Below are positions 2,740 to 4,085 of a stretch of 5,682 bases of DNA, piece by piece. Where the stretch lies: positions 1 to 5,682 of the IMG/VR virus record IMGVR_UViG_3300013863_000007. One strand, written 5' to 3'. The notes beneath the pieces are model-generated. The model saw only the letters and a list, made by a program, of their open reading frames with translations. It made no database searches and was not told the DNA's origin. The DNA comes from a virus. The translations under genes and the position numbers were made by a program. Every line of letters begins with the position of its first letter. Position 1 is the first letter of the stretch.

Positions 2740-3810
2740 ATGAATCAAGTTGTTTCTGCTTTGGATCTTAGTAATCCTGTTGATGTTTCGTTTTTAAAAA
2801 ATCTTTCTGCTGCTTCTTCGCGCGTTTCTGCTAAAAATACAAAATCTGAATTACGTGACACTGGGCTTGTCTCTATATTAACAAGTGACACGCCTTATAA
2901 AATAGAATTACCGTCTCAAGATTATTTGCGTTTAAAGCGTCTTCAAAAATCTGTCCGTGTTACTGCTGAAGTTGTCGAAGAAAAAATTAAGGCTTTCAAT
3001 CAAAGAATGAAGCCTGCAATGGTTACTCTAACTTATCGTCCTGACGTTTCTTGGTCTGCTAAGCATGTTACTGACTATGTAAAGTGTGTTAAGCAATGGG
3101 CTAAAAGAAAGGGTCTTGCTGTTCATTATATTTGGGTTATGGAATTAACTAAAAAGGGTGTTCCTCATTATCATGTTATGTGGTGGATTCCTAAGGGTCA
3201 CACTATGCCTAAGGCTGATAAACAAGGGTGGTGGAAACATGGCATGACTAACAGCGTTTGGGCGCGTAAACCTGTTGGTTATCTTTGCAAATATACATCA
3301 AAAGGTATTGATCCCCAGTCTTACGGTAAAATTCCTAAAAATGCTCGTTTGCATGGTTCTGGTGGCTTAACTGCTCCCATGCGTGTTTCTAAAATATGGC
3401 TTTGTTCCCCGTCTTGGGTGCGTGAATTATTTGATATTAATAATGGTGTAAAAAAGTTTGGTTGTTATTGGGTGGATCGTGTCACCTTAAAGGGTTTTTC
3501 ATCCCCTTGGCATTTTGATCATAATTCTCGTGTTTTGAAGTGGAAAGGCTTTGGATCTGTTGTTGATATAACTGAATTAGATAAATATAAGCAAATGTAT
3601 CCTAATAAGATGCCTGTTTCAGTATCTATGTTTTATCACTATGATCATGAGCAATTTGCTTTTGCATCTGATCTTTATTCTTTTGATTCTAAAAATATTC
3701 CTGCTTTTGATATGCAGAATTATTTGTCTTACTCTCGCCCTGCTGGATGTGATGATGATTTTGCTATTTTTGATTATTTCATTGATGTTTGTGAAGAATT
3801 ACATTTCTAG
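2740..3810 (+). CDS. HUH-superfamily rolling-circle replication initiator (Rep) with a two-tyrosine motif. 356 aa from ATG 2740; the alternative GTG start at 2731 gives 359 aa.
   Basis: Motif I is MVTLTY (3019..3036). Motif II is HYH within PHYHVMWW (3166..3174). Motif III is YLCKY within GYLCKYTSKG (Tyr codons at 3280..3282 and 3292..3294); Y-x-x-K-Y is as in phiX174 gpA. It is the largest ORF apart from pI and lies directly downstream of the structured non-coding region. Confidence 0.85.
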   Translation: MNQVVSALDLSNPVDVSFLKNLSAASSRVSAKNTKSELRDTGLVSILTSDTPYKIELPSQDYLRLKRLQKSVRVTAEVVEEKIKAFNQRMKPAMVTLTYRPDVSWSAKHVTDYVKCVKQWAKRKGLAVHYIWVMELTKKGVPHYHVMWWIPKGHTMPKADKQGWWKHGMTNSVWARKPVGYLCKYTSKGIDPQSYGKIPKNARLHGSGGLTAPMRVSKIWLCSPSWVRELFDINNGVKKFGCYWVDRVTLKGFSSPWHFDHNSRVLKWKGFGSVVDITELDKYKQMYPNKMPVSVSMFYHYDHEQFAFASDLYSFDSKNIPAFDMQNYLSYSRPAGCDDDFAIFDYFIDVCEELHF

Positions 3811-3996
3811 TTCTCCGTATTTATTAACAAAGATACTTTTTATTCCTATGTCTAAAATTTTGTGAGCTATTTCACTATCTTTGAGCGGTTCTTTATTCAT
3901 AGAGATTAATATTTTATTAATTTCTATGCACTTTTTCCGAAGATTTTCGCTCTGTACTTCTTTGATTCGTAACATTTTGATCATTTTTACTACCAT
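3799..3996 (-). CDS. Small basic/charged 65-aa protein and the only minus-strand gene. Candidate transcriptional regulator (repressor-like, possibly ribbon-helix-helix or HTH).
   Basis: A strong SD AGGAG (complement of 4005..4009) lies 8 nt before the ATG (complement of 3994..3996). It occupies an otherwise gene-free 275-nt gap. It is divergent from the gV/structural module across an intergenic region with repeated TGTTTAC motifs. Its 3' end overlaps the Rep 3' end by 12 nt. Caveat: a K/E/I-rich composition is also what the A-rich strand yields by chance. Confidence 0.5.
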   Translation of the reverse strand: MVVKMIKMLRIKEVQSENLRKKCIEINKILISMNKEPLKDSEIAHKILDIGIKSIFVNKYGELEM

Positions 3997-3998
3997 TT

Positions 3999-4070
3999 TG
4001 TTTACTCCTGTACTAAATATACTTGTTTACAACAAATTTTTTTTATGTTTACATATTTCAAAGTAAACAT
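3999..4070. promoter_or_regulatory. Array of TGTTTAC motifs: direct copies at 3999..4005, 4024..4030 and 4046..4052, and an inverted copy at 4063..4070 that forms ATGTTTAC-N10-GTAAACAT. Candidate operators/promoters of a divergent switch.
   Basis: Motifs read from the sequence, with spacings of 25 and 22 nt. TTTACA (-35-like) is embedded in copies 2 and 3. Copy 1 lies between the SD and the ATG of the minus-strand ORF. The same heptamer occurs at 2451..2457 and 2642..2648 in the large non-coding region. Confidence 0.45.
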
Positions 4071-4085
4071 AAATGGTAATTTAGC

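What the first reader, a model, noticed from the sequence alone, without database searches (positions are those of the whole stretch)
3799..4085. Lone minus-strand 65-aa ORF plus a TGTTTAC operator-like array: a putative switch placed between rep and the structural module
The only well-supported minus-strand gene has a near-ideal SD (AGGAG, 8 nt, ATG). It is divergent from the gV/coat/assembly operon across an 89-nt region. That region has three direct TGTTTAC heptamers spaced 25 and 22 nt apart (about two helical turns) and an inverted pair ATGTTTAC-N10-GTAAACAT just upstream of the gV-slot ATG. One heptamer sits between the ORF's own SD and ATG, which suggests autoregulation. The same heptamer recurs at the candidate rep promoter -35 (2642..2648) and in hairpin H1 (2451..2457). 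In known temperate inoviruses (CTXphi rstR, Pf4 pf4r and others) the repressor lies upstream of and divergent from rep. Here it is downstream of and convergent with rep, overlapping it by 12 nt at the 3' ends, so it would gate the ssDNA-binding/structural genes directly. The predicted pattern (short N-terminal strand KMLRIKEV, then two helices) is compatible with a ribbon-helix-helix or small HTH protein. That is a guess from the sequence, not a match.
Basis: inference. Interest (0 to 1): 0.65.

Follow-up and report, generated by a model that had tools for sequence, protein, structure and literature searches.

The report
Small inovirus repressor with operator boxes
The lone minus-strand gene of this 5.6-kb filamentous phage is real and belongs to an unnamed family of small proteins that sit beside the main promoters of many filamentous phages, always next to short TGT-N2-ACA DNA boxes, so it is most likely the phage's own transcription repressor; both this kind of module and its position are already known.

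Summary
ORF 3799..3996 (-) has AGGAG, 8 nt, then ATG. TGTTTAC occurs 7 times against 1.06 expected, and four copies lie in 3999..4069. The ORF is the coding frame: sense codon-position divergence runs pos2<pos1<pos3, and it is intact in 44 distinct relatives. The + ORF 3881..4066 is its wobble-sharing shadow.

The protein belongs to phrog_5642, with no Pfam or NCBIfam match and about 113 clusters at 50% identity. Outside this clade, homologues lie upstream of and divergent from rep, next to two other Rep families. Only the PF23343-Rep clade places the gene between rep and an OB-fold gene.

TGT-N2-ACA boxes accompany the gene in most relatives: 36 observed against 1.04 expected in 22 non-redundant upstream regions, and 22 against 0.64 in held-out loci. 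Two TGTTTACA boxes 22 nt apart, plus one on the rep -35 hexamer, are conserved in the clade.

The likeliest reading is an autoregulated repressor of the rep and structural promoters. The fold is compatible with ribbon-helix-helix but unproven, and DNA binding is untested. The placement is not novel: phiRSM ORF15 lies between pII and pV, and Pf4 pf4r faces the xisF4-structural operon.

The parts
3799..3996 (-). 65-aa regulator gene (family phrog_5642); 3' end overlaps rep by 12 nt
   Evidence: ORF list. 54 homologues at 55-100% identity. phrog_5642 at E 1.3e-18. Codon-position divergence 0.217/0.14/0.353 for positions 1/2/3. Intact in 44 distinct CDS. AF2 pLDDT 90.6, helices 13-32 and 40-54, hairpin 56-64.
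4005..4009 (-). Shine-Dalgarno AGGAG, 8 nt before the ATG
   Evidence: Read from the sequence. Relatives keep AGGAG or GAGG 6-11 nt before their starts.
3999..4005 (+). Heptamer copy 1 (TGTTTACt), between the regulator's SD and ATG; imperfect box
   Evidence: Present only in relatives at least 96% identical (L001, L002).
4024..4031 (.). Box 2, TGTTTACA (within cTTGTTTACAAc); candidate operator and -35-like TTTACA for the + strand
   Evidence: Invariant 8-nt block in the six-sequence intergenic alignment (columns 65-72 of the window row). Direct repeat D1.
4046..4053 (.). Box 3, TGTTTACA (within TATGTTTACATA, 5-nt palindromic arms); 22 nt from box 2 and about 52 nt upstream of the regulator ATG
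   Evidence: A box 51-53 nt upstream of the start recurs in L010, L016, L018, L021, L022, L024, L039 and L043.
4063..4069 (-). Heptamer copy 4 (inverted); right arm of the 11-nt inverted repeat 4042-4052/4063-4073
   Evidence: Degenerate (GTAAATAAA) in L006 and L009.
2642..2657 (+). Box TGTTTACA on the -35 hexamer of the rep promoter, followed after 2 nt by a second GTTTAC
   Evidence: Promoter-like TTTACA-16-TATAAT at 2644..2671, 11 of 12 matches, best in the region. Conserved position in L006 and L009, where the second hexamer is inverted.
4086..4352 (+). First gene of the divergent + operon: 88-aa OB-fold protein in the gV position (probable ssDNA-binding protein)
   Evidence: phrog_15713. 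AF2 topology strand-strand-strand-helix-strand-strand, pLDDT 74.6. Foldseek top matches are PriB, a small SSB and ribosomal S17, probability 0.97-1.0 but E at least 6e-3.
2731..3810 (+). Rolling-circle replication initiator (PF23343 REP_ORF2-G2P), convergent with the regulator
   Evidence: Pfam E 2.3e-31.

Best explanation
The 65-aa minus-strand gene encodes a small, probably dimeric, sequence-specific DNA-binding transcription regulator of a widespread but unnamed inovirus family (phrog_5642). It recognises short boxes with a TGT-N2-ACA core; in this phage the box is TGTTTACA.

Two boxes 22 bp apart lie in the 89-nt divergent region, between its own start and the OB-fold (gV-position) gene. 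A further box covers the -35 hexamer of the rep promoter. Bound protein would shut down its own promoter (negative autoregulation), the promoter of the ssDNA-binding and structural operon, and the rep promoter. That would hold the phage in a low-output carrier or immune state.

Shown computationally: the gene is real, the family exists, its position relative to rep across relatives, the association of the boxes with the gene, and the overlap of one box with the rep -35 hexamer.

Inferred: DNA binding, the dimeric state, the sign of regulation, and the exact promoters in 3997..4085.
For: Gene reality:
- Sense codon positions diverge 0.14 (position 2) < 0.217 (position 1) < 0.353 (position 3) in the clade, and 0.26 < 0.427 < 0.594 over 44 CDS.
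- The ORF is open in all 44 distinct CDS, with a strong SD.

Family and position:
- About 113 clusters at 50% identity.
- In about 30 loci outside the clade the gene is upstream of and divergent from rep. These rep genes belong to Phage_CRI/G2P or Rep_trans, whereas the window has PF23343.
- Some members lie in integrated or tandem prophages in Cellvibrio and Pseudomonas MAGs.

Boxes:
- TGTNNACA occurs 36 times against 1.04 expected in the 170 nt upstream of the gene in 22 non-redundant loci.
- In 13 loci not inspected when the pattern was defined, the count is 22 against 0.64.
- Many boxes are longer palindromes, such as ACATGTATACATGT and CTTGTTAACAAG.
- The boxes stay with the small gene while the Rep family changes.

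Specificity hint: Thr at the residue before the near-invariant Arg co-occurs with central-AT boxes in 4 of 4 loci, against 1 of 13 otherwise (Fisher P 0.002, post hoc).

In the clade: box 2 is the invariant block of the intergenic alignment, and the 22-nt spacing is kept. The rep promoter TTTACA-16-TATAAT carries a box on its -35 hexamer.

Fold: extended N-terminus plus two helices. The N-terminal pattern polar-L-R-L-polar followed by a helix aligns in register with NikA, Arc and CopG.
Against: - There is no experimental or significant in-silico evidence of DNA binding.
- No Pfam, NCBIfam or PDB sequence match, and no significant Foldseek match.
- The box contains TTTACA, a one-mismatch -35 hexamer, so part of the enrichment could reflect promoter density.
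- No convincing sigma-70 -10 hexamer was found for either promoter inside 3997..4085.
- Five family loci (L047, L049-L052) have no box upstream, and three more non-redundant loci (L005, L011, L015) lack the strict TGTNNACA box.
- The Thr/AT covariation is post hoc and not corrected for phylogeny.
- Repression rather than activation is assumed from the -35 overlap only.
Confidence: 0.65

Rival explanations
1. The protein does bind the boxes but acts as an activator or bifunctional switch protein. Pf4r auto-activates its own gene, and XisF4 activates its own gene and rep. Alternatively it acts as an excisionase-like directionality factor rather than a simple repressor.
For: In Pf4 the small divergent regulators activate their own genes and repress each other (PMC7379572). 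The model has two helices plus a C-terminal beta-hairpin, which loosely recalls winged excisionase-type folds. Some family members lie in integrated prophages.
Against: The box sits on the -35 hexamer of the rep promoter (centre near -32), a position typical of occlusion. The window clade has no integrase or recombinase. No match to excisionase or HTH_17 families.
Confidence: 0.15
2. The boxes are promoter elements or sites for a host factor, and the small protein has a different role, for example superinfection exclusion, an antitoxin-like function or protein-protein control of Rep.
For: TGTTTACA contains TTTACA, which is -35-like. At the rep promoter it is the -35 hexamer. The protein has no significant match to any DNA-binding family.
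Against: Three to four copies occur in under 90 nt, more than two divergent promoters need. Variants such as TGTATACA and TGTGTGCA are not -35-like, yet they are repeated in the same place. The central dinucleotide differs between phages and tracks a residue of the protein, which is unexpected for a fixed host factor. The boxes follow the gene across hosts and Rep families.
Confidence: 0.13
3. The boxes are Rep-binding iterons or part of the plus-strand origin rather than operators.
For: In the classical layout the boxes lie directly upstream of rep, where filamentous-phage origins are often found.
Against: The same TGT-N2-ACA core occurs with three unrelated Rep Pfam families. In the window clade the main pair lies next to the small gene and downstream of rep, while the large intergenic region with repeats and hairpins is elsewhere, at 2065..2730.
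Confidence: 0.04
4. The minus ORF is not a gene. The + strand ORF 3881..4066 or no ORF at all is functional, and the heptamers are chance.
For: The + frame stays open across most of the overlap in relatives, with 0-2 stops.
Against: That frame shares its third positions with the minus ORF. Its positions 1 and 2 show the inverted, non-coding pattern. It starts with TTG and has no SD. It runs into the intergenic region, where L006 has stops. The minus ORF is detected down to 35% identity in unrelated phage backbones. None of 200 shuffles reached the observed heptamer count.
Confidence: 0.02

Closest known systems
Ralstonia phage phiRSM1/phiRSM3 ORF15 (putative repressor)
   Same: A reverse-oriented small repressor-like gene placed between the pII-like replication gene and the pV-like ssDNA-binding gene (PMC3816273). 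This is the same position as here.
   Different: No detectable sequence similarity: tblastn of the protein and of the family consensus against 50,697 phage records found no Ralstonia phage. In phiRSM it sits with a serine recombinase (ORF14) and attP, and the window clade has no recombinase.
Pf4 pf4r / xisF4 switch (Pseudomonas aeruginosa)
   Same: An opposite-strand repressor is divergent from the operon that leads into the ssDNA-binding and coat genes. The replication initiator (PA0727) is regulated at a separate promoter. Direct and inverted repeats lie in the shared leader region (PMC7379572).
   Different: There is a second regulator (XisF4, an activator and excisionase) and H-NS-type host control. 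No sequence similarity was found. Here the regulator faces the OB-fold gene directly.
CTXphi RstR and the ig-2 operators
   Same: An opposite-strand repressor next to the rep (rstA) promoter with several operators. This is the usual layout of the family outside the window clade. A BFVD model named RstR is among the top fold matches (probability 0.72, TM 0.55, E 0.73).
   Different: The match is not significant and has no sequence support. By general knowledge, RstR proteins are longer HTH repressors. In the window the gene is not next to the rep promoter.
Ribbon-helix-helix repressors of rolling-circle and plasmid replicons (CopG of pMV158, omega of pSM19035, Arc, NikA N-domain)
   Same: Small size. 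An N-terminal strand-like motif with alternating polar and hydrophobic residues, then two helices. Short repeated boxes used in direct or inverted orientation: direct at the window's rep promoter, inverted in L006 and L009. Control of an initiator gene. An omega-like RHH gene has been noted in the Pseudomonas filamentous phage PMBT54 (PMC10534721).
   Different: Only sub-threshold matches: NikA-like best E 0.011 in 4 of 106 members, PDB 2ba3 E 0.19, hhalign probability below 5%. Helix A is about 20 residues, the inter-helix loop about 7, and there is an extra C-terminal beta-hairpin.

Membership tests
Ribbon-helix-helix (MetJ/Arc/CopG) superfamily | Significant sequence or profile match to an RHH family | tested here: not met
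   No Pfam hit for the window protein. Among 106 family members, NikA-like was hit by 4 (best E 0.011) and DUF6290 by 2, all below threshold. PDB NikA 2ba3 gave E 0.19. hhalign against Arc, CopG and omega (sequences recalled from memory) gave probabilities of 4.6%, 0.8% and 0.2%.
Ribbon-helix-helix (MetJ/Arc/CopG) superfamily | N-terminal beta-strand with alternating residues followed by two helices | tested here: inconclusive
   The AF2 monomer has an extended N-terminus (residues 1-12), helices 13-32 and 40-54, and a hairpin at 56-64. The consensus is polar-L-R-L-polar followed by xxE, with near-invariant R10. Helix A and the loop are longer than usual.
Ribbon-helix-helix (MetJ/Arc/CopG) superfamily | Intertwined homodimer whose paired strands enter the major groove | not testable with these tools
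No multimer prediction was available.
Inovirus immunity or regulatory repressors (RstR, Pf4r, phiRSM ORF15 type; a functional class) | Small gene on the strand opposite the replication and structural genes, beside their promoter region | tested here: met
   Window. Relatives.
Inovirus immunity or regulatory repressors (RstR, Pf4r, phiRSM ORF15 type; a functional class) | Repeated operator-like sites in the adjacent promoter region | tested here: met
   TGTTTAC: 7 against 1.06 expected. TGTNNACA: 36 against 1.04 upstream of family genes, and 22 against 0.64 in held-out loci.
Inovirus immunity or regulatory repressors (RstR, Pf4r, phiRSM ORF15 type; a functional class) | Sequence homology to a characterised repressor (HTH XRE/cI-type RstR, Pf4r, ORF15) | tested here: not met
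   No HTH family in Pfam. tblastn against phage records finds only unannotated inovirus ORFs. No source gives a name to any homologue.
Inovirus immunity or regulatory repressors (RstR, Pf4r, phiRSM ORF15 type; a functional class) | Demonstrated DNA binding, repression or immunity | not testable with these tools
   Requires EMSA, footprinting, reporter assays or superinfection assays.
PHROG phrog_5642 | Profile match | tested here: met
   E 1.3e-18 over residues 3-64 of the window protein, and E 1.3e-19 for P0054. The family is annotated 'unknown function'.

The most novel reading that the evidence does not exclude
phrog_5642 is a previously unrecognised, structurally atypical (RHH-like or new-fold) repressor family. 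It defines the immunity and regulatory cassette of many inoviruses across three Rep families, and its specificity is read out by the residue before the near-invariant Arg.

In the window's clade the cassette has moved to the 3' end of rep. The repressor transcript then runs antisense through the whole rep gene to a conserved minus-strand terminator at 2675..2706. This would give a dual control of a rolling-circle initiator by protein and antisense RNA, analogous to CopG/RNAII of pMV158.
Probability: 0.15. Interest if true: 0.55.

Novelty: new member of a known kind. Interest (0 to 1): 0.33.

Why it matters
This gives a testable function, repressor with TGT-N2-ACA operators, to a protein family currently labelled 'unknown function'. 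The family is found in environmental, oral and Pseudomonas-associated filamentous phages and prophages.

It also offers a simple marker for the regulatory region of small inoviruses, which are hard to annotate.

The same regulator-plus-operator cassette has been combined with three different replication-initiator families and two gene orders. This illustrates how filamentous-phage genomes are assembled from exchangeable modules.

It does not change the understanding of how such switches work.

Tried and rejected
- blastn of the whole window against 50,697 phage records found no match.
- Pfam, NCBIfam and PDB sequence searches with the single protein and with 28- and 106-member profiles found nothing significant.
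- Foldseek of the AF2 model against PDB and BFVD gave no match with E <= 0.001. The BFVD 'RstR' hit (probability 0.72) could not be corroborated by sequence, so it is kept only as a lead.
- hhalign against Arc, CopG and omega (sequences recalled from memory) gave the right register for Arc and CopG but probabilities below 5%, so RHH membership is not claimed.
- Source names for homologues are all 'hypothetical' or absent.
- I looked for a convincing sigma-70 promoter pair inside 3997..4085. The scan found none there. My hand-derived candidates are weak and not claimed: TTTACA-17-TTACAT on the + strand, and TATATT or TAAAAA as -10 hexamers on the - strand.
- The hairpin-H1 heptamer (2451) is not treated as part of the system, because it is not conserved.
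- The + ORF 3881..4066 is rejected as a gene.
- The host remains unknown. A relative sits on a 3.9-kb contig of a Klebsiella pneumoniae assembly, but the phage is 36% G+C, so this may be contamination.
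Full report
**What the window is**

The window is one complete circular filamentous-phage genome of 5555 nt at 36.1% G+C. 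The last 127 nt repeat the first 127.

All convincing genes except one are on the + strand:
- a DUF2523 (gVI-like) gene and a Zot/gI-like gene;
- a 670-nt intergenic region;
- a rolling-circle initiator of Pfam family PF23343 (2731..3810);
- an 88-aa gene in the gV position (4086..4352);
- a 60-aa gene, a 79-aa coat-like gene, and a long gIII-like gene that wraps round the ends.

I modelled the 88-aa protein. It has strand-strand-strand-helix-strand-strand topology (pLDDT 74.6). Its best structural neighbours are PriB, a small mycoplasma SSB and ribosomal protein S17 (probability 0.97-1.0, but E at least 6e-3). It is therefore an OB-fold protein and a reasonable ssDNA-binding candidate.

**Checking the observation**

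- The ORF is at 3799..3996 (-), with AGGAG, an 8-nt spacer and ATG.
- It overlaps rep by 12 nt, and an 89-nt gap precedes ATG 4086.
- TGTTTAC lies at 3999, 4024 and 4046, and inverted at 4063.
- Further copies lie at 2642 and 2451.

The heptamer occurs 7 times against 1.06 expected, and no shuffle in 200 reached that count. Four of seven copies clustering this tightly has P about 2e-4. The inverted repeat is longer than reported, with 11-nt perfect arms at 4042-4052 and 4063-4073.

**Is the ORF a gene?**

The + strand ORF 3881..4066 shares its third codon positions with the minus ORF. It therefore stays largely open in relatives, with 0-2 stops. Open-frame counting alone cannot decide between the two.

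Codon-position divergence does decide:
- In the minus frame, substitutions per site run position 2 (0.14) < position 1 (0.217) < position 3 (0.353) within the clade.
- Over 44 distinct homologous CDS the values are 0.26 < 0.427 < 0.594.
- For the + frame the first two positions are inverted, which is the non-coding pattern.

The minus ORF is intact in all 44 CDS, has a strong ribosome-binding site, and is the frame called in public assemblies. It is the gene, and the + ORF is its shadow.

**The protein family**

The protein has 54 close homologues. A profile search of 1.84 billion representatives finds 113 clusters at E <= 1e-3, nearly all 60-110 aa. It matches phrog_5642, annotated 'unknown function', at E 1.3e-18. 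It matches no Pfam or NCBIfam family, and no source names any member.

The family consensus is x-L-R-L-x-x-x-E-Q-x-x-L-x-x-K-x-x-E-I-N-K-x-L ... P-x-x-D-S-E-L-x-H-x-I-L ... G. N27 is invariant, and R10, E15, L30 and H45 are nearly so.

AlphaFold (pLDDT 90.6) gives an extended N-terminus, helices 13-32 and 40-54, and a short C-terminal hairpin.

Hints of a ribbon-helix-helix fold exist, but all are below threshold:
- NikA-like and DUF6290 Pfam hits in a few members (best E 0.011).
- The NikA N-domain 2ba3 at E 0.19.
- Arc and CopG aligning the strand and helix A in register, with R10 opposite Arc R13, at hhalign probability below 5%.

Foldseek gives nothing significant. A BFVD model named RstR of CTXphi (probability 0.72) and a 48-aa archaeal-virus regulator are among the top hits. 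I therefore treat 'RHH-like' as a lead, not a result.

**Genomic position in relatives**

I collected 56 loci in all, from viral, metagenome and genome collections and phage records; 52 of them were scanned and all carry a homologue of the 65-aa gene.

Outside the window's clade, the homologue lies immediately upstream of and divergent from rep in every locus where a rep gene could be recognised. That is about 30 loci, many of them redundant. This is the classical inovirus regulator position. Those rep genes belong to Phage_CRI/G2P (PF05144 plus PF05155) or Rep_trans (PF02486).

Members include:
- human and lemur saliva inoviruses and Pseudomonas phage NEU2023;
- prophages in Cellvibrio and Pseudomonas MAGs, one of them a tandem array.

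Only the clade with a PF23343 Rep has the gene convergent with rep and divergent from the OB-fold gene. That clade comprises the window, L001-L003, L006-L009, L044, L053, L054 and L056.

**The boxes travel with the gene**

In the relatives I first inspected, the region upstream of the gene carried repeated words such as:
- TGTATACA (often ACATGTATACATGT);
- TGTTAACA (CTTGTTAACAAG);
- TGTTCACA, TGTTGACA and TGTGTGCA.

The common core is TGT-N2-ACA, a short palindrome-type box. The window's TGTTTAC heptamer is its left seven bases. Box 3, TATGTTTACATA, has 5-nt symmetric arms.

Counts in the 170 nt upstream of the gene, over 22 non-redundant loci, are 36 boxes against 1.04 expected from the rest of the same loci. 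In the 13 loci not inspected when I defined the pattern, the count is 22 against 0.64 (P about 3e-26). Fourteen loci have two or more boxes. The looser pattern TGTNNRC gives 160 against 15.8.

Recurring geometry:
- a box 51-53 nt upstream of the start codon recurs in many lineages, including the window's box 3;
- spacings of 22 nt (window clade, L016, L018) and 57 nt (L017, L028, L039) recur.

Because the core stays the same while the Rep family opposite changes, the boxes are far more likely to belong to the small protein than to Rep.

A post-hoc observation points the same way. Thr at the residue before the conserved Arg goes with central-AT boxes in 4 of 4 loci, against 1 of 13 otherwise (Fisher P 0.002, uncorrected for phylogeny). 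At least two of these contrasts lie within subfamilies: L017 against L013 and L014, and L043 against L010 and L022.

Five loci on long bacterial contigs or related short contigs have no box of either pattern, and three more non-redundant loci (L005, L011, L015) lack the strict TGTNNACA box.

**Within the window's clade**

Box 2 (4024..4031) is the invariant block of the intergenic alignment. Box 3 follows 22 nt later in all lineages, down to 53% protein identity (L003).

The copy between the SD and the ATG and the inverted copy are confined to near-identical relatives.

Upstream of rep, the best promoter-like site of the region has its -35 hexamer inside a box: TTTACA-16-TATAAT at 2644..2671, 11 of 12 matches. 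A second GTTTAC follows after 2 nt. L006 and L009 keep the first box, but the second hexamer is inverted. This use of a short unit in either orientation recalls the heptad operators of the omega repressor (general knowledge).

I could not identify convincing -10 hexamers for either promoter inside 3997..4085. The exact promoter-operator geometry there remains an inference.

**Most likely mechanism**

The protein is a small dimeric repressor that binds the TGTTTACA boxes. It autoregulates from the shared 89-nt region and limits transcription of the OB-fold and structural operon. Through the box on the -35 hexamer it also limits rep.

No + strand terminator separates rep from the structural genes. 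Intergenic occupancy could therefore also act as a roadblock to read-through from the rep promoter.

Rival readings are listed in the rival explanations with their tests: activator or bifunctional regulator, host-factor or promoter elements, Rep iterons, and non-gene.

**Comparison with what is known**

The kind of module is familiar, and so is the position:
- In Ralstonia phiRSM1/3 a reverse-oriented putative repressor, ORF15, lies between the pII-like and pV-like genes (PMC3816273).
- In Pf4, pf4r is divergent from xisF4 at the head of the structural genes. Rep (PA0727) lies at the far end, and repeats lie in the overlapping leaders (PMC7379572).
- An omega-like RHH gene has been noted in the filamentous phage PMBT54 (PMC10534721).

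Three things appear to be new:
- the functional proposal for an unannotated family;
- its TGT-N2-ACA box signature;
- the finding that one clade has moved the cassette relative to rep, or swapped rep around it.

**Verdict**

This is a new member of a known kind and of moderate to low interest.

Noticed in passing
window 2675..2706 (arms 2676-2687 and 2694-2705): A perfect 12-bp-arm hairpin lies between the rep promoter -10 hexamer and the rep start. On the minus strand it is followed by TTTTTTATTATA, giving the only terminator-like site found in 2050..4400. It is conserved in L003, L006 and L009, with 4 pairs changed on both sides. It could end a minus-strand transcript that starts at the 65-aa gene and runs antisense through all of rep. 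Alternatively it could be a 5'-terminal stabilising hairpin of the rep mRNA.
   Followed up: partly
window 1..127 and 5556..5682: The window is a complete circular genome of 5555 nt with a 127-nt terminal redundancy. G+C is 36.1%.
   Followed up: yes
window 2404..2435 / 2591..2622, 2141..2165 / 2243..2267, 2464..2475 / 2552..2563: The large intergenic region contains three pairs of direct repeats. They are 32 nt at 88% identity, 25 nt at 96% (each ending in ATG of a tiny ORF) and 12 nt at 92%. There are also CCAGG/CCTGG hairpins. These are probably origin or packaging elements.
   Followed up: no
window 3881..4066 (+): This 61-aa + strand ORF shares its wobble positions with the real minus-strand gene. 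It therefore stays open in most relatives. It is a textbook shadow ORF, not a gene.
   Followed up: yes
L013-L018, L010-L012, L004 versus the window: The same small regulator with its boxes is found next to three different Rep Pfam families (PF05144/PF05155, PF02486, PF23343). This implies module exchange of rep around a conserved regulatory cassette.
   Followed up: partly
L014 (Cellvibrio MAG contig), rep at 4382-5503 and 10181-11302: Two identical phage copies lie in tandem with a period of about 5.8 kb, like CTX-type tandem prophage arrays or a concatemer assembly.
   Followed up: no
L053 (GCA_047967795.1, contig DBFQBY010000052.1, 3898 nt): A clade member with the same rep, regulator and OB-fold gene layout is deposited in a Klebsiella pneumoniae assembly. 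The phage's low G+C (36%) makes contamination or a different true host possible.
   Followed up: no
window 4037..4044: A T8 run lies between boxes 2 and 3. It is kept as T8 in L006 and T7 in L009, but not in L003. It may be an intrinsic bend or an UP-like element.
   Followed up: no
window 4086..4352: The gV-position protein (phrog_15713, no Pfam hit) is predicted to be an OB fold with an inserted helix. It resembles PriB and small SSBs rather than the Ff gene V protein.
   Followed up: partly
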